DNA of 10,132 bases from a virus (Duplodnaviria; Heunggongvirae; Uroviricota; Caudoviricetes), in IMG/VR virus record IMGVR_UViG_2630968500_000005. The stretch is one strand, 5' to 3'. This document shows positions 1 through 10,132 of this stretch, piece after piece (the stretch's first letter is position 1; each line of letters starts with the position of its first letter). Under the pieces are notes generated by a model. It had not been told where the DNA came from. It was given only the letters and a program-made list of their open reading frames with translations, and made no database searches. The position numbers were made by a program, and so were the translations under genes.

Positions 1-536
1 GAGGCGGTGCAATTTGCGCTATCGCGGTGATGATTACCATCGTGATGGGTAATGGCAATGTGCGAACCAACCAGGCGGGGCTTGAGCTTATCGGAAGCGC
101 TGAAGGTTGCCGACGTGATCCATACATGTGCCCGGCAGGGGTATGGACTGACGGGATCGGTAATACACACGGGGTAACGCCGGGTGTGCGAAAAACAGAC
201 CAGCAAATCGCCGCTGATTGGGAAAAGAATATCCTGATCGCTGAACGCTGTATTAACCAGCACTTCCGGGGCAAAGACATGCCCGATAATGCCTTCAGTG
301 CAATGACAAGCGCGGTATTCAATATGGGATGCAATAGCTTACGGACCTACTACAGCAAAGCGCGAGGCATGCGAGTAGAAACGTCCATCCACAAGTGGGC
401 GCAGAAAGGGGAATGGGTGAATATGTGTAACCATCTCCCTGATTTCGTGAACAGTAACGGCGTGCCCCTGCGAGGCTTAAAGATTCGCCGTGAAAAAGAA
501 CGCCAGCTTTGCCTGACGGGACTGGTCAATGAATAA
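1..536 (+). CDS. lyz: SAR endolysin (P1 Lyz-type lysozyme), 5'-partial; true start about 20 nt upstream of the window
   Basis: The frame is open from nt 3 and reads GGAICAIAVMITIVMGNGNVRTNQAGLELIGSAEGCRRDPYMCPAGVWTDGIGNTHG..., a Gly/Ala-rich weakly hydrophobic N-terminus (SAR domain) followed by a T4-lysozyme-like E-x8-C/D...T-D-G-I-G motif. Cys codons sit at 15-17, 108-110 and 129-131 and a Glu codon at 102-104, the spacing recalled for P1 Lyz Cys13/Glu42/Cys44/Cys51. Stop TAA at 534-536. The GTG at 27 used by the ORF track is an internal Val codon, not the start. Confidence 0.9.
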   Translation, partial: GGAICAIAVMITIVMGNGNVRTNQAGLELIGSAEGCRRDPYMCPAGVWTDGIGNTHGVTPGVRKTDQQIAADWEKNILIAERCINQHFRGKDMPDNAFSAMTSAVFNMGCNSLRTYYSKARGMRVETSIHKWAQKGEWVNMCNHLPDFVNSNGVPLRGLKIRREKERQLCLTGLVNE

Positions 537-783
537 ACTCCGGCAGCTCCGCCGACTTTCGACAATGAAGTTATCGCTGGCGGCGATAGTTTTCGACTCG
601 ATTTTCATGGCGGTATATGTGCTCAATGAGTCGTGGCCACTGGAACCGCTATTATATGCCGGGCTTCGGCTGTGCCTGACATTTTTGAGCATGGCTGCAA
701 GATTGATGCAGCAGAAAGAAACCGCTTCAGATTGTCCACGCCGCGCGGTGCGCAAATATATGGCACGCAGGCGAAAGCGATAA
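529..783 (+). CDS. hypothetical small membrane protein (84 aa, two predicted TM segments, strongly basic C-terminal tail); holin/pinholin-like topology, function unproven
   Basis: ATG at 529 overlaps the lyz stop (ATGAATAA), suggesting translational coupling. Hydrophobic stretches LSLAAIVFDSIFMAVYVL (about nt 574-628) and LLYAGLRLCLTFLSMAARLM (about nt 649-708), then tail RRAVRKYMARRRKR. Stop TAA at 781-783 sits 14 nt before an intrinsic terminator. Several rare Arg codons and no clear SD keep confidence low. Confidence 0.4.
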   Translation: MNKLRQLRRLSTMKLSLAAIVFDSIFMAVYVLNESWPLEPLLYAGLRLCLTFLSMAARLMQQKETASDCPRRAVRKYMARRRKR

Positions 784-796
784 TAGTTAACGATAC

Positions 797-822
797 CCCC
801 GGCAGCCGCCGGGGTTATTTTT
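797..822 (+). terminator. rho-independent terminator between convergent lysis and head genes
   Basis: Perfect 7-bp GC stem CCCCGGC (797-803) / GCCGGGG (808-814) with 4-nt loop AGCC, followed immediately by TTATTTTT (815-822). It lies 14 nt after the 529..783 stop and just past the pro stop (828-830) on the other strand, so it may act in both directions, with a weaker U-tract on the minus strand. Confidence 0.65.
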
Positions 823-827
823 GGTGG

Positions 828-3624
<2,797 letters not shown>

Positions 3625-6600
3625 ATGAACAAGCTATCTATGGGGGTGTTTCGCTGTTCAAGTGTCAGCGAAATATTGAAATACATTAGGGCAATAACAT
3701 CTCACCGAGCGCCGATTAGATACGGCGTGGAAAAGGTGGAAGGCAAAAGCTATGACCGACTACGCCGGGAGGCGAATCAGAAGGCGATAGATTTGCTTAA
3801 TTCGCTGGTGGACGGCGCGACACTGACAGATGAACAGCGCCAGATCCTGGCTGGGTACACCGGTGAAGGCGGCATTGGCGGGTCCGTCTCCGAATATTAC
3901 ACACCAAAGCCGATCGCTGAAGGTGTCTGGGAGATCATGAAGCTCTACGGCGCGGACGTAGGTAACACTCTGGAACCATCGGCGGGAACCGGCGTTTTTA
4001 ATGAGACAAAACCGGTTGGTACGGTGATGACCGCGACTGAGATCAGCAGTGTTTCCGGTCGTATAAACCAGTTGTTACACCCGGAAGACAGCGTACAGAT
4101 TTCCCCGTTCGAACAGCTGGCTATAAGCACGCCTAACGATTCATTCGACCATGTTGTGGGTAACGTTCCGTTCGGCGGTCGTGATAACACACGCAACATC
4201 GATAAGCCTTACGCAGAAGAAACGGACATGGGTTCTTACTTCATGCTCCGCATGCTGGACAAGATAAAGCCAGGCGGATTCATGTGCGTGATTGTGCCGC
4301 CGTCCATTGTTTCAGGTTCAAACATGAAGCGGTTACGCCTGCGCCTATCACGGAAAGCTGAATTTCTTGGTGCCCACCGCTTGCCTACCGGTACTTTTGA
4401 CGCAAACGGGACCAGTACGGTCGTTGACGTGGTGCTGATGCGCAAACATCCGGCGGAGATGGCTGAGAAAATCCCCCTGGTGGATGAAGGCACTCTTGAA
4501 TCGGCAAATGTGCTTTGGCCAACGTTTATTTCTGGCAAGTGGTTTGAAAAGGATGGCCGCCGGTTTGTTCATGGCACTCAGGAGAAGGGATTCCAGGGGC
4601 GTATTGAGGTTCGTGCCGACGGTCAGATTGATAACCAGGCTCTTAAAGCGAAGCTGATTCATCGTTTCGAAAGCCGTATCGACTGGTCTTTGCTCGATAT
4701 GGCTGAACCGTCACCGACCGCAGACGTTGTTGGTGAAGGGGAAATGCGCCTGATTAATGGTGTATGGCAAAAATATGCTGGTGGTCGCTGGATTGAAGCT
4801 GATGCCGGGAAGGAACTTAAGATCGATGCTGCCAGTTATGGCGCGGATAGCTGGGAGGCTCTTCAGCGTAACCTGACTACAACAGAAGGCCGTCTCGGCA
4901 TGACATTTACCCAGATGGCAAATGTCCGCGATAAGTACACCACATCAATCAGCGACGATATGGTGCAGCTGGTGGACTGGATTAACAGCCAGCCTGAAAA
5001 ATACCGTGAACGCTTGTATCGTGGGGCGATGATTGGCCGGATGTTAATTGAATATCAGGATATGAAGGCCGCCGGGCATAGTGCTGAACAAATCGAACAG
5101 CAGCGCCTTTCTCTGGTATCCCGTTTGCAGGCAGAGATTGACCGTTTTGGTAACCCCGGTCGCGGTCCGATAGCGAAATTATCGGGGAGCGGTGCGCGCG
5201 CCTGGTTTGCTTTCCGTGGTGCAATTAAGCTGGATGGCACTATTTCTGACGAGCTGACAGGAAAACTGGTTACGCATGATTCCAGCGCCAGTTATGACTC
5301 CACCAGCTATCAGGACACCCTGCGTTATCTCTACAGTGATCTCACTCGCGATCCAATCCAGCTCGATGATTTCCGCCTTGCGTTTACCGGCGAACTGCCA
5401 GCCAGTGATGACGAGTTGCTTAATTTATTGGCCAGCACCCCTGGTATTGCGGTTTCACCGTATGGCGGGATTGTTCCGTTCGCCCGCGCCACCAGCGGCG
5501 ACATTAACGAGATAGTAGCTCCAAAACAGGAATTCCTTGCCACACTCCCCGACGGTCCAGTAAAGAACAACGTCCTTAATCAGCTGGCAGCGATCGAAGA
5601 GAAGCGCATCAAGACGCCAGCAGAGAATATCCGGTTTAAGCTCAATAGCCGTTGGTTCGACCGTTCCGTCATTCTGGAATTTTTGCAGGAAAACGGCTAT
5701 CCGGATCTGCGCTATGTGCAGTCAGTGCAGCTGGAAGGCGACGAAATGGTTTCTGACACCTATCACGGTGGTGATGGTCTGTTCGTCGGGCACCGATACG
5801 GTGTCGTCCAGCGCAAGGATAAAGAAACAGGCGAGATCCGCTACGAGTGGGACCGTAAATCAGGTGAAAACGCGACCGGGTTCCCGGCACAACTGGAAAA
5901 GTATCTCAATGGTGCACGTATTGGTGGCAAAGATAGCGCGACGGCGAACGGCTACCGCGAGCAGATGGCACTGCTTGAGGACCAGTTCAATAAGTGGATC
6001 AAGACGCACGATCGCTACGATGAGCTGGTTGCCAAATACAACGATGTTTTCAATAGCAATATTCCGTATGAACATTCTGGCGATCCGCTTGGGTTGAAGG
6101 GATTAAGCGGTAAGCGCCAGCCATTTGATTACCAGAATAGCGAGGTGCGCCGACTGTCCGAAGATGGGCGCGGCATCCTGGGCTTCGGCACCGGGCTGGG
6201 TAAAACCACGACCGCGCTGGCGCTTGAGGCGTTCAACTATGAGAACGGTCGCTCCACCCGTACTGCGTATGTAGTGCCTAAATCAGTGCTGGAAAACTGG
6301 TATTACGAAGCAAAAGAATTCCTGAGTGAAGAGGCATTCAGTAACTACCTGTTCGTCGGTCTTGATGTGCTGATGGATGGCGATCAGATTCGCCAGGTGC
6401 CGGTGCTCGATGAGAACGGTAAACCTGTTCTTGGTACTGATGGCACTCCAGTTATGCGCGATGCCCTTAAACTGGCAGATGAAGCCACTATCACGGCGCG
6501 TATGAACGCGATCCCGCACTCAAATTACCGTGCAGTCGTGTTTACCAAAGAACAATACGCCCGCATTCCGCTACGTGATGACACCGTAGATGAGCATGCA

Positions 6601-9600
6601 CAGGATATGCTTTATGACTTCGTTGCTGCCGGGCGCGTAGCCAGCGCAATGAACTCCGACTCCCACCGCAAAGAGGCCGCGCGTCGCCGGGTATTGTCGG
6701 AGTATTCAGATACCGGTACCGAAAAAGCAGAGAAGTATCCGTACTTTGAGGATATGGGCTTCGACAGCGTGATTGCTGACGAAGGCCACAACTACCGCAA
6801 TAGCTATAAAAATGGTCGCGAAGCGTCACAGCTGGCCTATCTGCCCACCAGCGCGGTGGCGCAATCGGCGCGAGATATGGCAATCAAAAACGCGTACCTG
6901 ATGAAAAAGAATGGCGGGCGCGGGCCGGTTCTCCTGACTGCAACGCCAGTCGTTAACACTCCGATCGATGCATACAACATGCTTTCTCATGTTCTGCCGA
7001 AGGAATACTGGCAGAAGATGGGGATCTACGGTCCTGATGACTTCGTTAAATTCTTCGGCAAGACCAGGCTGGAAACGGTACAGAAAATCAGCGGTGAAGT
7101 TGAAGAAAAAATGGCGCTGGTGGGCTTTGAAAACCTTGATGCGCTGCGCGGCATATTCCATCGCTGGACAACGCTTAAAACGGCGGAAGACGTTAAGGAT
7201 ACCGTGGAGATCCCGGAGCTGGACGAACACCAGCAGGATGCACCACTTACTGAAGAACAACTGGCGGCGTATGAAGAATTACGCCAGCAGGCGGAAGCGG
7301 CGGCCAAAGCCAACAATGGCGTAACGACCTCGGTCGATGAAGACGGAGTGATTGAGCACGAGAAAGCCCGTCCGATCTTCTCAATAATCAGGGATATGGA
7401 CCGCGTATGTACTGACATGGACCTGTACTATCGCCGGATCACCTATCGTTTCCTGCCGGAGTACGCCGATGCAGTGCAGCAACTGGCGGACAGTTTGCCT
7501 AAACAAGCCACCAGCGAAGACGACGACAGTGATGATTCAATCACGCAGCAATCGCAATACTCCCTGATAGATAAGGGCGAGTTTATTCAGTTGCAGGTTC
7601 CGGAAGCGTTTGAGCAGGAAGTGAATAAGCGCCTGGCCAGGTTTGGCATTGACGAACAGACCGTAACTCACCCCGTTACACCCAAATACGCGAAGCTGAT
7701 CGCCACGCTGAAGGAGTTTTTCCCGGAAGGTAAGCAAATCATCTTCACGGACGAAAAAACGCAGCACCAGAAGCTCAAGCGCATTATCTGCAATGCTCTT
7801 AACCTTGAACCTTCAAAGGTGGGGATCCTGAATGCTCAGACGGTTGCCGAGGCAGGTAAAACCGGTAAGAAACTGAAAGCGGTTAAACCGCCGAAAGAGT
7901 TACCGGATGAACCAACAGATGCACAGATAGCGAAATACAACGAGCAAATGGCTCTGTATGACGCCTATATCGCGCAGCAAAATGAAATGTCGTTGGGCGG
8001 TCTGGAAAAGATTGCAGCCGACTTCCAGGAGGGCCGGACTCCGATCATCATCTGCAACAAAAAGGCAGAGGTGGGTATCAACCTGCATCGAGGAACGACG
8101 GATATCCACCACCTGACGTTGCCGTGGACTCCAGCCAGTATCGCACAACGTAACGGTCGCGGTGCCCGAGTTGGCTCCAACCGTGCAAGCGTTCGCGTTC
8201 ATTACTACTGCGGCAAGGGGTCTTTCGATGAATACCGACTGAAGACGCTGAAGCGTAAAGCAGGCTGGATCTCCGATATCCTCCGTTCAGATAAGTCAGA
8301 AATGGAGAACGCCGATGCCAACGATATGATCGAAATGCAGATGTATACCGCTAAGGATGATGGCGAACGTCTGGCAATGATGCAGGTTCAAATGGATAAG
8401 GCGAAAGCCGCGCAACGCGCTCGCCAGAAAGAACAGGCTACTATCGACCTTCAGAACTACATCAAGGCGCAGCACGCAGCTGGCGAGGATGTGGAGGTAC
8501 TTACCGCTGAATTAGAGCGAAACAAAGCGGAACTTGAAAAGACCACCGCCGAGGTAGCTAAATTCAAACAGGCGGCAATGGCCAAAGCAGCTGATAACGC
8601 AGACTGGAAGACCCGCTGGGGTAGCGTCCATCACACAGACCGTACGTTGTTAGCACAGTATCGCGCGTCGTTGAAAAGCGCCATTCAGCGCAAGGCTAAT
8701 ATCTCTCAAGCCATCTCCCGCTATGAGAAATTATTGAACCGTACTCAGAAGGCCGCGACGGATATCAAACGCCTGCGCCCGCTGGTGGAGGATGCAATAA
8801 ATAAAGGCATTCTGGATGTTGATCCTGATCTGGTTAACCATGCGAGTGAGTTCCTTGTTATCGGCGATCGCTCATGGCGTGTAGGCCAATACTACGATTG
8901 TGCCGGTGATATCGTTCGCATTAAGTCGCTGGACTTCGACAGCCAGCGCGCAGACGTGGAGATCATCTTTACCTTCAAAGGCACCAAATCGGGTAACTGG
9001 GATGTGAAGACGCTGGATAAACAGGTAGATGTGACTCCCGATGAAGATGCTGTTATGCAGAAAATCAGTGGTGGCGTCTCCATCGCCGGGATTAACGGCA
9101 TCATTTCCTGTGACGATTTCTACCGTTTCCAGCAGCGCGGCATGATCAAAATCACTGACTCATACGGCGTTCAGACTACAGAGTCAGGCTATAGCATTGA
9201 TTTTGTTGGTACCTATACGGACCCACTGAAGCATGCGGTTTACCCGGATCGCCGTGACGGCGCGCTGAAGTCGTCAATTGCTAAATGGGTGCTTGGTATG
9301 ATGTCGGAAGGGAATAACCGCCAGGTCCGTTTGGCAGAAGTATTCCTGACTGAACTGTTTGGCTCCAATTATAGCGATGTAATCGCGTCATACGGAGATA
9401 CGTTATCCCCTGAAGCAATTCAGGAGAAAATAGCGGATGCGATCGCCAGAATGCCGGAGAAAACAAGCCAGGGGGCTACTCGTAACGGGGATTCTGAACT
9501 TGAGATCACCAATGCCATTTTCGGTACCAATGAGTTCCGGGCGTCAGATTTTGAGGTCACCACAGCACAGTTTGGCCCCATTGGCATTTACAGCAATAAA

Positions 9601-10098
9601 GACGAGATCAAGCAGGCAATGGACGCAGCAAGCGCGCGCATTGCAGCAGAACGGAAAGCCAATCTGAATCATGCAGTCGCCGCGCTGACTCAATCGTGGG
9701 TAACAGCAATCAGGGAGGCCGCCACCACAGGGAAAATCACACCGGCAATTGCGGATGTCGTAAACAACGGCTCTAAATTTATGGATGCCTATCAAATGGA
9801 TGCGGTGCAGTTGCCATCAGCCTATGGCCAACTCAGCTATCGCATGACCTACAACCTGGTATCAATGTTTATCATTGACGTCATGTTTCCGGGCCAGTGC
9901 GGCAATACTGCCTTCTTCTTCAAGAGCCAGCCTGACCAGTTCCATTTTGAATTCAGGGGAATAGTGTTTCCGGGGAAGTCTTTCTTTAGCGCGCATGAGG
10001 TGTCCACCTGCAAAATAAGTGGGTGCTTAAGTTACAGGATCCTGGATTCGGGACCAGACGGTACTCAGACGACGCTTACCTGTGTTGTTCTAAGGTGA
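3625..10098 (+). CDS. darB: DarB-like antirestriction protein: N-terminal N6-adenine DNA methyltransferase-like domain plus SF2 helicase core; 3' end appears IS-disrupted (native coding probably ends near 9870)
   Basis: ATG at 3625 with SD AAGGA 6 nt upstream. MTase motifs: TPKP (3901-3912), motif I LEPSAGTGVF (3970-3999), motif IV-like NVPF (4162-4173). Helicase motifs: Walker A GLGKTT (6196-6213), DEGH (6778-6789), TATP (6937-6948), motif VI QRNGRGAR (8146-8169). Acidic cluster SEDDDSDDS (about 7513-7539) and a coiled-coil region (about 8370-8620). A giant MTase-helicase fusion next to prt/pro/lyz matches P1 DarB. The last ~75 codons (about 9874-10098) are the antisense of an IS3-family OrfA fragment and are unlikely to be native. 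Confidence 0.85.
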   Translation: MNKLSMGVFRCSSVSEILKYIRAITSHRAPIRYGVEKVEGKSYDRLRREANQKAIDLLNSLVDGATLTDEQRQILAGYTGEGGIGGSVSEYYTPKPIAEGVWEIMKLYGADVGNTLEPSAGTGVFNETKPVGTVMTATEISSVSGRINQLLHPEDSVQISPFEQLAISTPNDSFDHVVGNVPFGGRDNTRNIDKPYAEETDMGSYFMLRMLDKIKPGGFMCVIVPPSIVSGSNMKRLRLRLSRKAEFLGAHRLPTGTFDANGTSTVVDVVLMRKHPAEMAEKIPLVDEGTLESANVLWPTFISGKWFEKDGRRFVHGTQEKGFQGRIEVRADGQIDNQALKAKLIHRFESRIDWSLLDMAEPSPTADVVGEGEMRLINGVWQKYAGGRWIEADAGKELKIDAASYGADSWEALQRNLTTTEGRLGMTFTQMANVRDKYTTSISDDMVQLVDWINSQPEKYRERLYRGAMIGRMLIEYQDMKAAGHSAEQIEQQRLSLVSRLQAEIDRFGNPGRGPIAKLSGSGARAWFAFRGAIKLDGTISDELTGKLVTHDSSASYDSTSYQDTLRYLYSDLTRDPIQLDDFRLAFTGELPASDDELLNLLASTPGIAVSPYGGIVPFARATSGDINEIVAPKQEFLATLPDGPVKNNVLNQLAAIEEKRIKTPAENIRFKLNSRWFDRSVILEFLQENGYPDLRYVQSVQLEGDEMVSDTYHGGDGLFVGHRYGVVQRKDKETGEIRYEWDRKSGENATGFPAQLEKYLNGARIGGKDSATANGYREQMALLEDQFNKWIKTHDRYDELVAKYNDVFNSNIPYEHSGDPLGLKGLSGKRQPFDYQNSEVRRLSEDGRGILGFGTGLGKTTTALALEAFNYENGRSTRTAYVVPKSVLENWYYEAKEFLSEEAFSNYLFVGLDVLMDGDQIRQVPVLDENGKPVLGTDGTPVMRDALKLADEATITARMNAIPHSNYRAVVFTKEQYARIPLRDDTVDEHAQDMLYDFVAAGRVASAMNSDSHRKEAARRRVLSEYSDTGTEKAEKYPYFEDMGFDSVIADEGHNYRNSYKNGREASQLAYLPTSAVAQSARDMAIKNAYLMKKNGGRGPVLLTATPVVNTPIDAYNMLSHVLPKEYWQKMGIYGPDDFVKFFGKTRLETVQKISGEVEEKMALVGFENLDALRGIFHRWTTLKTAEDVKDTVEIPELDEHQQDAPLTEEQLAAYEELRQQAEAAAKANNGVTTSVDEDGVIEHEKARPIFSIIRDMDRVCTDMDLYYRRITYRFLPEYADAVQQLADSLPKQATSEDDDSDDSITQQSQYSLIDKGEFIQLQVPEAFEQEVNKRLARFGIDEQTVTHPVTPKYAKLIATLKEFFPEGKQIIFTDEKTQHQKLKRIICNALNLEPSKVGILNAQTVAEAGKTGKKLKAVKPPKELPDEPTDAQIAKYNEQMALYDAYIAQQNEMSLGGLEKIAADFQEGRTPIIICNKKAEVGINLHRGTTDIHHLTLPWTPASIAQRNGRGARVGSNRASVRVHYYCGKGSFDEYRLKTLKRKAGWISDILRSDKSEMENADANDMIEMQMYTAKDDGERLAMMQVQMDKAKAAQRARQKEQATIDLQNYIKAQHAAGEDVEVLTAELERNKAELEKTTAEVAKFKQAAMAKAADNADWKTRWGSVHHTDRTLLAQYRASLKSAIQRKANISQAISRYEKLLNRTQKAATDIKRLRPLVEDAINKGILDVDPDLVNHASEFLVIGDRSWRVGQYYDCAGDIVRIKSLDFDSQRADVEIIFTFKGTKSGNWDVKTLDKQVDVTPDEDAVMQKISGGVSIAGINGIISCDDFYRFQQRGMIKITDSYGVQTTESGYSIDFVGTYTDPLKHAVYPDRRDGALKSSIAKWVLGMMSEGNNRQVRLAEVFLTELFGSNYSDVIASYGDTLSPEAIQEKIADAIARMPEKTSQGATRNGDSELEITNAIFGTNEFRASDFEVTTAQFGPIGIYSNKDEIKQAMDAASARIAAERKANLNHAVAALTQSWVTAIREAATTGKITPAIADVVNNGSKFMDAYQMDAVQLPSAYGQLSYRMTYNLVSMFIIDVMFPGQCGNTAFFFKSQPDQFHFEFRGIVFPGKSFFSAHEVSTCKISGCLSYRILDSGPDGTQTTLTCVVLR
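9862..9996 (-). pseudogene. truncated IS3-family transposase OrfA (N-terminal HTH fragment, 44 codons)
   Basis: Direct translation of the reverse complement of 9862-9996 gives 44 residues with the IS3-family OrfA HTH signature, then a premature stop where homology to darB resumes. Too short to be functional. Confidence 0.45.
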
Positions 10099-10132
10099 GC
10101 ATATCACCTCTGTTCAGGTGGCCAAATTCAGT
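9874..10132 (-). mobile_element. IS3-family insertion sequence remnant (left end plus 5' part of transposase OrfA), abutting or truncating darB
   Basis: The minus strand encodes MRAKERLPRKHYSPEFKMELVRLALEEEGSIAALARKHDVN from ATG at 9996-9994, a close match to the helix-turn-helix pattern of IS3/IS911-type OrfA (..R.YS.EFK.E.V.L....G.S...AR...V.). The match stops abruptly near 9874, after which the frame hits TGA (9864-9862) and the sequence is darB-like. The outer terminus is probably near 10112-10116 (RC TGAAC...) or beyond the window. Boundaries are approximate. Confidence 0.5.

What the first reader, a model, noticed from the sequence alone, without database searches (positions are those of the whole stretch)
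9862..10132. darB 3' end is replaced by antisense IS3-family transposase sequence (chimeric, probably truncated DarB)
The last ~75 codons of the long ORF (...MFPGQCGNTAFFFKSQPDQFHFEF...CVVLR*) are Cys/Phe-rich and unlike the rest of the protein. The reverse complement of the same DNA encodes a clean IS3-family OrfA HTH N-terminus (MRAKERLPRKHYSPEFKMELVRLALEEEGSIAALARKHDVN) that stops abruptly near 9874. This is the signature of an IS insertion followed by deletion, or an IS-mediated rearrangement, that removed the native DarB C-terminus. If P1 DarB is about 2,255 aa as recalled, roughly 170 residues would be missing. This may inactivate antirestriction or DarB packaging and marks a rearrangement hotspot.
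Basis: partly seen in the sequence, partly recalled or inferred. Interest (0 to 1): 0.7.

Follow-up and report, generated by a model that had tools for sequence, protein, structure and literature searches.

The report
darB split by an inversion breakpoint
The phage P1 anti-restriction gene darB is cut after codon 2082 and joined to a fragment of an IS66-family insertion sequence, because a DNA segment was flipped in a plasmid that is a decayed remnant of a P1-like phage; this is an ordinary rearrangement scar, not a new biological system.

Summary
P1 darB homology stops at window 9870 (codon 2082 of 2255). The last 75 codons of the 2157-aa ORF are antisense read-through of mobile-element DNA.

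The element is misnamed. Window 9871-10079 is the left end of an IS66-family element, not IS3. It holds the inverted repeat (IR) GTAAGCG... and the first 42 codons of tnpA. An IS911-like (IS3-family) left-end stub follows at 10080-10132.

The window is identical to E. coli G5 plasmid NZ_CP060066.1. There the missing darB 3' end, with ulx and lxc, sits 69 kb away, fused to the rest of the same IS66 element. The two junctions are exactly reciprocal: a 2-nt AA overlap and no base gained or lost.

Undoing a later IS26-mediated 72.5-kb inversion puts the junctions 10.8 kb apart in inverted orientation. That inversion is supported by inverted 8-bp target duplications and by an unsplit site in an E. 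marmotae relative. Flipping the 10.8-kb segment restores intact darB and intact IS66.

The junction occurs in 19 contigs, so it is not an assembly artefact.

The plasmid keeps only about 39% of P1. It lacks darA, hdf, ddrA/B and the tail genes, so the truncation has little consequence. The enzyme behind the exchange is unknown.

The parts
3625..9870 (+). darB-derived part of the chimeric ORF: codons 1-2082 of P1-type DarB. The methyltransferase and helicase domains are all retained.
   Evidence: 98.7% amino-acid identity to P1 DarB residues 1-2082. DNA identity to P1 is 98% and ends at 9870/9871. Pfam N6_Mtase 145-290, SNF2/ResIII 833-911 and Helicase_C 1455-1517 match as in P1 DarB.
9871..10098 (+). 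Chimeric tail: 75 codons plus the stop, read from the antisense strand of IS66-family and IS911-like DNA. It is not DarB sequence.
   Evidence: Translation. No match to P1 DarB beyond residue 2082. The DNA is 100% identical to IS66-family left ends in many records.
9869..9870 (.). Crossover core: 2 nt (TT on +, AA on -) shared by both parents. This is junction J1.
   Evidence: Parents: darB-rc GGTCGGA[AA]ACATTG and IS66 AATGAT[AA]CCTGCTC. Products: J1 AATGAT[AA]ACATTG and J2 GGTCGGA[AA]CCTGCTC. The BLAST segments overlap by exactly 2 nt on both parents.
9871..10079 (-). Left-end fragment (nt 1-209, or 1-211 with the core) of a 2437-bp IS66-family element. The terminal inverted repeat tip GTAAGCG is at 10079.
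   Evidence: 100% identical to the left end of an intact copy (L003; L002). Reconstructed element: 2437 bp, tnpA 127 aa, tnpB 115 aa, tnpC 511 aa, imperfect terminal IRs. Pfam TnpB_IS66 and DDE_Tnp_IS66 match.
9862..9996 (-). Remnant tnpA ORF: 42 native codons of IS66-family TnpA, then K, H and a stop supplied by antisense darB.
   Evidence: Translation. PF01527 34.7 bits. NF047595 and NF038385 match the fragment; the full-length copy passes the NF047595 cutoff, 75.7 against 74.
10080..10132 (-). IS911-like (IS3-family) left inverted-repeat remnant, nt ~12-64. The outer 11 nt lie just beyond the window end, which is also the contig end.
   Evidence: 98% identical to the IS911 left end in phage Sf6. 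The alignment shows TGAAGTGGTTTACTGAATTTGGCC...ACACAG, then the IS66 IRL. The window equals the whole contig JPKK01000101.1 of 10132 bp.

Best explanation
Window 9869-10132 is one of the two breakpoints (J1) of a DNA inversion in a decayed P1-derived plasmid.

In an ancestor, darB was intact. An intact IS66-family element, nested in IS911-like and IS30 debris, lay about 10.8 kb away. A single reciprocal break-and-rejoin took place between darB codon 2082/2083 and nt 209-211 of the IS66 element (tnpA codon 42/43). It flipped the segment in between.

The flip fused darB codons 1-2082 head-on to the first ~210 nt of the IS. That is junction J1, seen in the window. It also fused the darB 3' end, with ulx and lxc, to the remaining 2.2 kb of the IS. 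That is junction J2.

A later intramolecular replicative transposition of IS26 inverted a 72.5-kb interval that contains J2. In the complete plasmid the two junctions therefore now lie 69 kb apart in the same orientation.

The resulting darB ORF reads through antisense IS DNA for 75 codons to the first stop.

Shown: the breakpoint position, the exact reciprocity, the IS family, the IS26 signature, and the in-silico restoration of both parents.

Inferred: the exchange was a conservative, homology-independent event. Candidate agents are a topoisomerase or gyrase subunit exchange, or a promiscuous recombinase. It was not transposition by the IS66 element. The agent is not identified.

The functional consequence is probably nil, because the plasmid can no longer build virions or the Dar packaging machinery.
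For: - The window is 100% identical to the reverse strand of NZ_CP060066.1 141610..148192+1..3549.
- P1 DNA 2051-8371 of locus L004 maps to plasmid 148192-141872, and 8370-9612 maps to plasmid 72789-71547. IS66 query 18-229 maps to 141662-141873, and 228-2460 maps to 72788-75021. Each parent is therefore split with a 2-nt overlap and no loss (sequences).
- RefSeq itself annotates 72266..72790 as a partial 'darB domain protein' missing its N-terminus.
- IS26a (64449-65268) and IS26b (137808-138627) are exact reverse complements of each other. They are flanked by TTTTTGCG and CGCAAAAA.
- The related E. marmotae plasmid has one uninterrupted CGCAAAAA at 47497-47504. The two G5 flanks diverge from it in opposite directions. 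This is the published signature of IS26 intramolecular inversion (PMC4471558).
- After that inversion is undone, J1 and J2 are inverted and 10,763 bp apart. Flipping the 10,765-bp segment yields an intact 2437-bp IS66 element and an ORF ending ...HNVADVLAVIQQYA, like P1 DarB.
- The exact 2157-aa protein is encoded on 19 contigs. The six loci examined come from five NCBI assemblies and one ENA metagenome. All six carry an identical J1 and are 99.98-100% identical to the G5 plasmid.
- Only G5 carries J1 or J2 among 72,556 PLSDB plasmids.
Against: - The inversion model rests on one complete assembly plus one relative.
- The ancestor it implies already differs from the E. marmotae plasmid in how the SIR2'-lxc-ulx-darB block is linked, so at least one earlier rearrangement is unreconstructed.
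- An alternative route gives the same junctions: excision of a circle by the same exchange, followed by IS-mediated re-integration.
- No enzyme is identified.
- Whether J2 exists in the draft assemblies that carry J1 could not be checked.
Confidence: 0.85

Rival explanations
1. One reading: an IS3-family element inserted into darB, and a later deletion removed part of the IS together with the darB 3' end.
For: The antisense ORF belongs to PF01527, the family that includes IS3 OrfA. An IS911-like IRL stub lies at 10080-10132. A complete IS3 lies about 0.8 kb further on.
Against: The ORF and its flanks are IS66-family. The darB 3' end is not deleted; it is present at plasmid 72269-72789, joined to the rest of the same IS66 element. 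The darB/IS junction lies 209-211 nt inside the IS, not at an IS terminus.
Confidence: 0.03
2. Same reciprocal exchange but a different topology. The two sites were in direct orientation. The exchange excised a ~35-kb circle (IS66 right part, pmgM'...pacAB, c1, cre, mat, lxc, ulx, darB 3'). That circle was recaptured elsewhere by recombination between IS copies. Alternatively, two circles fused.
For: In the E. marmotae relative, IS911L' and the P1 block pmgN...mat-SIR2-lxc-ulx-darB' are colinear, so IS66 and darB would lie in direct orientation. J1 and J2 are in direct orientation in today's plasmid.
Against: It needs a non-replicating circle to survive and re-integrate. The IS26 inversion is independently demonstrated, and once it is undone a single 10.8-kb inversion suffices. 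The two would-be circles carry complementary rather than overlapping P1 gene sets, which argues against fusion of two separate P1-like plasmids.
Confidence: 0.1
3. The exchange was catalysed by a serine invertase acting on quasi-sites, such as P1 Cin or a host Pin/Hin-type enzyme. These enzymes cut with a 2-bp stagger and invert DNA.
For: The exchange is exactly conservative with a 2-nt core. The core AA/TT is the same dinucleotide as in the P1 cix sites found (..AAACC[TT]GG.. and ..AAACC[AA]GG..). The topology is an inversion.
Against: The four half-sites match the cix half-site consensus TTNTCNNAAACC at only 0, 1, 3 and 4 of 9 specified positions (my count on the sequences). cin is absent from the plasmid at protein level. 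A 2-nt overlap is expected by chance fairly often. The IS66 position is not a recurrent break: 337 of 342 PLSDB copies are intact across it.
Confidence: 0.05
4. Assembly artefact: a chimeric contig joining darB to a repeated IS.
For: The window ends inside a repeat, the IS911-like IRL. It is a complete short-read contig of 10132 bp.
Against: The junction lies 260 nt inside the contig. The two parents share only 2 nt at the join, so there is no repeat for an assembler to collapse. The junction is identical in six examined loci, from five NCBI assemblies and one metagenome, and in a closed plasmid that also holds the reciprocal junction.
Confidence: 0.01

Closest known systems
Phage P1 DarB (defence against restriction; 2255 aa methyltransferase-helicase packaged in the virion)
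   Same: Residues 1-2082 are 98.7% identical. The methyltransferase and helicase domains are the same, the N-terminal capsid-targeting residues are retained, and the synteny prt-pro upstream of darB is the same (PMC9024508).
   Different: It lacks the last 173 residues and carries 75 unrelated residues instead. Its partners Hdf, DarA, DdrA and DdrB are absent from the plasmid. Ulx is now encoded 69 kb away.
IS66-family insertion sequences (tnpA-tnpB-tnpC, GTAAGCG terminal repeats)
   Same: The fragment is 100% identical to the left end of intact copies that are widespread in enterobacterial plasmids and chromosomes. The reconstructed element has the canonical three-gene layout and domains.
   Different: Here the element is split in two at nt 209-211 by a non-transpositional exchange. 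The reconstructed copy has no 8-bp target duplication.
IS26 intramolecular replicative transposition producing inversions in resistance plasmids (He et al. 2015, PMC4471558)
   Same: There are two inverted IS26 copies with the 8-bp target sequence in inverted configuration, and a relative carries the unsplit target.
   Different: This event did not create the darB junction. It only moved the reciprocal junction away from it.
[quoted passage not shown]
   Same: The plasmid has a P1 backbone remnant (34.5 of 88 kb), loss of virion genes, and gain of IS elements, metabolic cargo and an IncA/C mobI fragment.
   Different: None in kind. This is one more example, with a particularly clean reciprocal breakpoint pair.

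Membership tests
   The parent element has GTAAGCG termini and tnpA, tnpB (PF05717) and tnpC (PF03050), with no rve domain. NCBIfam transpos_IS3 scores 23.6 bits against a cutoff of 160.
   34.7 bits for the 44-aa remnant and 50.3 bits for the full TnpA. This domain is shared with IS66 TnpA, so it does not discriminate between the two families.
IS66 family | TnpA accessory protein of the IS66 type | tested here: met
   The full-length copy scores 75.7 bits on NF047595 against a cutoff of 74. The remnant's best hits are NF038385 and NF047595. RefSeq annotates identical copies as 'IS66-like element accessory protein TnpA'.
IS66 family | TnpB (IS66 Orf2) and the DDE transposase TnpC downstream in the same element | tested here: met
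   PF05717 scores 131 bits. PF03050 scores 352 bits, and the zf-IS66, LZ_Tnp_IS66 and DDE_Tnp_IS66_C domains also match. Both genes lie on the other half of the split element at plasmid 73042-74974.
IS66 family | Imperfect terminal inverted repeats starting GTAAGCG (recalled from ISfinder descriptions) | tested here: met
   The left end GTAAGCGTCGTCTGAGTACCGT and the reverse-complemented right end GTAAGCGTGCAGTGAGAACCGT share their first 8 nt exactly and 18 of the first 27.
IS66 family | 8-bp target-site duplication flanking the element | tested here: not met
   The left flank is CAACACAG and the right flank is GTTCAAAA. This copy sits between different IS911-like and IS30 fragments, so earlier rearrangements are likely.
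IS911 (IS3 family), for the stub at 10080-10132 | Sequence identity to the IS911 left inverted repeat | tested here: met
   98.2% over 55 nt to the annotated IS911 of phage Sf6. Only about 64-66 nt remain, so it is a remnant and not an element.
P1 DarB (full-length, functional Dar component) | A complete 2255-aa protein | tested here: not met
   Homology ends at residue 2082.
P1 DarB (full-length, functional Dar component) | Co-encoded Hdf, DarA, DdrA, DdrB and Ulx, needed for incorporation into capsids (PMC9024508 Table 1, citing Piya et al.) | tested here: not met
   tblastn finds Ulx only. There are no hits for hdf, darA, ddrA or ddrB.
IS26 intramolecular replicative transposition (inversion) | Two IS26 copies in opposite orientation, flanked by the same 8 bp in inverted configuration, with the target unsplit in a relative | tested here: met
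   The criterion is taken from PMC4471558.
Cin/cix-type serine-invertase crossover site | Central dinucleotide identical in both partners and equal to the cix core | tested here: met
   AA in both parents. The P1 cix cores are TT and AA. This is weak evidence, because a 2-nt match is common by chance.
Cin/cix-type serine-invertase crossover site | 12-bp half-sites resembling TTNTCNNAAACC | tested here: not met
   0, 1, 3 and 4 of 9 specified positions match in the four half-sites. This is a manual comparison of the sequences with the cix sites.
Cin/cix-type serine-invertase crossover site | Invertase gene present | tested here: not met
   There is no Cin homologue on the plasmid. A host or ancestral copy cannot be excluded.

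The most novel reading that the evidence does not exclude
The exactly reciprocal, homology-free, 2-nt-core inversion between darB and IS66 tnpA may be the footprint of a site-specific recombinase acting far off-target on two unrelated sequences. Candidates are a serine invertase or another programmable or promiscuous enzyme carried by this IS-rich plasmid or its host. A second possibility is that the truncated DarB, with methyltransferase and helicase intact, is kept as a working plasmid-borne enzyme after loss of the phage lifestyle.
Probability: 0.07. Interest if true: 0.4.

Novelty: already known. Interest (0 to 1): 0.15.

Why it matters
- **Annotation.** RefSeq lists the chimeric 2157-aa ORF as an intact 'N-6 DNA methylase' (WP_244449222.1 / WP_435052121.1). 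It should be flagged as a truncated DarB fusion. The 44-codon antisense ORF should not be called an IS3 transposase.
- **Biology.** This is a clean, fully reconstructible example of how a P1-like phage-plasmid decays into a plain plasmid. It shows a homology-independent inversion followed by an IS26 inversion. darB was destroyed independently in a sister plasmid.
- **Limits.** It does not reveal a new system. It does not bear on Dar function, because the rest of the Dar and virion machinery is gone.

Tried and rejected
- **Crossover at the shared hexamer.** IS66 and darB(+) share TCAATG near the break. A crossover there predicts junctions ...GACGTCAATGTTTTCC... and ...GGTATCAATGATAACC..., which are not observed. 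The quasi-palindromes at J1 (TCAATG-ATAAA-CATTGA) and J2 (AGGT-CGGAA-ACCT) are probably chance.
- **Cin quasi-cix sites.** The core matches but the half-sites do not, and there is no cin gene.
- **Cre at a pseudo-lox site, or Xer at a dif-like site.** I compared the sequences by eye with loxP and dif recalled from memory. I found no convincing arms, and the crossover is not in a plausible spacer. This was not formally tested.
- **IS66 transposition or one-ended transposition.** The junction is internal, 209-211 nt from the IRL, and there is no target duplication.
- **IS26 at the junction.** No IS26 lies at J1 or J2.
- **Fusion of two P1-like plasmids, or unequal exchange in a dimer.** The P1 segments on the two halves are complementary. 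Dimer models leave intact parental copies, which are absent.
- **Recombination hot spot in IS66.** 337 of 342 PLSDB copies are intact across the site.
- **Naming the IS.** No ISfinder copy is available. RefSeq gives only 'IS66 family transposase'. My recollection that ISEc8 is of similar length is unverified.
Full report
**1. What is in the window**

The window is a whole 10,132-bp draft contig, JPKK01000101.1 of GCA_000768485.1. It is 100% identical to the reverse strand of the closed E. coli G5 plasmid NZ_CP060066.1, positions 141610..148192 and on to 1..3549. It carries part of P1-type lyz, a holin gene, pro and prt. It also carries one long ORF, 3625..10098, of 2157 aa.

DNA identity of that ORF to darB of P1, P7, RCS47, SJ46 and thousands of P1-like plasmids runs at 96-99% and stops at window 9870/9871. 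On P1 (NC_005856) darB is 6768 nt, or 2255 codons. The match ends at codon 2082. BLASTP agrees: 95% identity up to ...YNLVSMF and nothing after.

The remaining 75 codons read IIDVMFPGQCGNTAFFFKSQ...CVVLR*. The opposite strand reads MRAKERLPRKHYSPEFKMELVRLALEEEGSIAALARKHDVND, then KH and a stop.

**2. What the foreign DNA is**

The minus-strand ORF hits Pfam PF01527 (HTH_Tnp_1), the family that contains IS3 OrfA. Even so, it is the N-terminus of an IS66-family TnpA. Four results support this:

- Identical DNA is annotated 'IS66-like element accessory protein TnpA' across E. coli genomes.
- A full-length copy passes NCBIfam NF047595, 75.7 bits against a cutoff of 74. It scores only 23.6 bits on the IS3 model, whose cutoff is 160.
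- The sequence starts with the terminal repeat GTAAGCGTCG... at window 10079.
- The rest of the element encodes TnpB_IS66 (131 bits) and a DDE_Tnp_IS66 transposase (352 bits).

Window 10080-10132, plus 11 nt beyond the contig end, is a 64-66-nt stub of the left inverted repeat of an IS911-like element. That element is a true IS3-family member. The contig ends inside this repeat.

**3. The missing piece is not missing**

On the closed plasmid, P1 DNA corresponding to darB codons 2083-2255, ulx and lxc lies at 72789-71547. It abuts the remainder of the same IS66 element at 72788-75021. RefSeq already labels 72266..72790 a partial 'darB domain protein'.

The four sequences can be written out:

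- Parent, darB reverse strand: GGTCGGA[AA]ACATTG
- Parent, IS66: AATGAT[AA]CCTGCTC
- Product J1: AATGAT[AA]ACATTG
- Product J2: GGTCGGA[AA]CCTGCTC

No nucleotide is gained or lost. The only shared sequence is the AA dinucleotide (window 9869-9870). The event was therefore a conservative reciprocal exchange. It was not an insertion followed by a deletion. It was not transposition of the IS either, because the break lies 209-211 nt inside the element.

**4. Topology**

Today J1 and J2 lie 69 kb apart in direct orientation. A single intramolecular event cannot produce that arrangement.

The E. marmotae IncY plasmid NZ_CP099352.1 resolves this. It carries the neighbouring DNA in an unrearranged form: ppp-pmgP-pmgN ... 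IS911 left end, a hypothetical gene, mobI, WP_016236903 and WP_015063000.

G5 65269-67809 matches Em 47504-44964 on the minus strand. G5 138628-140021 matches Em 47497-48891 on the plus strand. Both segments share the 8 bp at Em 47497-47504.

In G5 those 8 bp (CGCAAAAA / TTTTTGCG) flank two IS26 copies that are exact reverse complements of each other. This is the published signature of IS26 intramolecular replicative transposition with inversion (PMC4471558).

I removed that 72.5-kb inversion in silico. J1 and J2 then sit in inverted orientation, 10,763 bp apart. Flipping the 10,765-bp segment between the cores regenerates an intact 2437-bp IS66 element. It also regenerates a darB ORF that ends exactly like P1 DarB.

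The simplest history is therefore:

1. A 10.8-kb inversion between darB and IS66 tnpA.
2. The IS26-mediated inversion.

An excision-and-recapture route cannot be excluded. It needs more steps and a non-replicating intermediate.

**5. Reality and spread**

The exact 2157-aa chimeric protein is encoded on 19 contigs. The six loci retrieved come from five NCBI assemblies and one ENA metagenome. All six carry an identical J1 and are 99.98-100% identical to the G5 plasmid. Two of them also have an extra IS3 inside pro.

Among 72,556 PLSDB plasmids, only G5 has J1 or J2. The junction is thus real and belongs to one plasmid lineage. It is not a recurrent hot spot: 337 of 342 PLSDB copies of this IS66 region are intact across the break.

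**6. Mechanism of the exchange**

The reciprocity and the lack of homology are shown. The agent is inferred and remains unknown.

A serine invertase is attractive because it makes a 2-bp stagger and inverts DNA. The P1 cix cores are TT and AA. Against this, the four half-sites match the cix half-site consensus at only 0-4 of 9 positions, and no cin gene is present.

A crossover at the nearby shared hexamer TCAATG predicts junctions that are not seen. A topoisomerase or gyrase subunit exchange fits a conservative, homology-independent, reciprocal event, but I cannot test it here.

**7. Consequences**

All recognised DarB domains lie upstream of the break: N6_Mtase 145-290, SNF2/ResIII 833-911 and Helicase_C 1455-1517. 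The lost 173 residues match no Pfam or NCBIfam model.

The capsid-targeting signal is the N-terminal 30 residues (PMC9024508), so the break itself would not prevent packaging.

The plasmid, however, keeps only 34.5 of 88.4 kb of P1. At protein level it lacks Hdf, DarA, DdrA, DdrB, Cin, the tail fibre S, BplA, Sit, Tub, RepL, Ban, Dmt, gp6 and gp25. It cannot make virions or load DarB.

It is one of the plasmids that arise from P1-like phage-plasmids by gene loss and cargo gain (PMC10879196). The E. marmotae relative lost nearly all of darB independently, through an IS1-associated truncation.

**8. Verdict**

The feature is real and the coordinates are accurate. It is wrong on the IS family and on the mechanism: reciprocal inversion, not insertion plus deletion. 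Its functional concern is moot.

This is an ordinary rearrangement scar in a decaying mobile element. The one mildly unusual aspect is the base-perfect reciprocity with only 2 nt of overlap.

Noticed in passing
L013 and L016 (sibling contigs), equivalent to window ~1211: In two other assemblies of the same plasmid lineage, an extra IS3 copy interrupts pro, and the contigs end in IS3 at both ends. This is further decay of the P1 remnant.
   Followed up: partly
NZ_CP099352.1 80114-81050 (L022 ~23841-24777): The E. marmotae IncY relative keeps lxc, ulx and only the last ~220 nt of darB next to an IS1. darB was therefore destroyed independently in a sister P1-derived plasmid.
   Followed up: partly
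NZ_CP060066.1 64449-65268 and 137808-138627 (outside the window): Two inverted IS26 copies are flanked by TTTTTGCG and CGCAAAAA, and the unsplit target is present in the E. marmotae plasmid. This is a textbook 72.5-kb IS26 intramolecular inversion, and it relocated the reciprocal darB junction.
   Followed up: yes
Window 10072-10087 and NZ_CP060066.1 75009-75060: The IS66-family copy has no 8-bp target duplication (CAACACAG on the left, GTTCAAAA on the right). On its left is IS911 nt ~1-64. On its right is a ~45-bp IS30 end remnant, followed by IS911 sequence from about nt 390. This points to older nested insertions and deletions.
   Followed up: partly
Window 3625-10098: RefSeq and PLSDB annotate the chimeric ORF as an intact 'N-6 DNA methylase' (WP_244449222.1; later WP_435052121.1 with a different start). 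The same record marks the displaced 3' fragment as a partial darB pseudogene.
   Followed up: yes
Window 9858-9882 (J1) and NZ_CP060066.1 72778-72795 (J2): Both recombinant junctions are short quasi-palindromes with 5-nt spacers: TCAATG-ATAAA-CATTGA and AGGT-CGGAA-ACCT. IS66 and darB(+) both read TCAATG...ACCT. This is probably coincidence, but I did not test it statistically.
   Followed up: no
NZ_CP060066.1 8674-13043: The plasmid's RepA is only 42% identical to P1 RepA, and its ParA only 58% identical to P1 ParA. PLSDB types the replicon as IncHI1B rather than IncY. The maintenance module is therefore not P1's own.
   Followed up: no
Window 1-536: The contig starts 22 nt inside the lyz gene. 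The left contig end is not at an obvious repeat in the G5 plasmid, so the JPKK strain may differ there.
   Followed up: no
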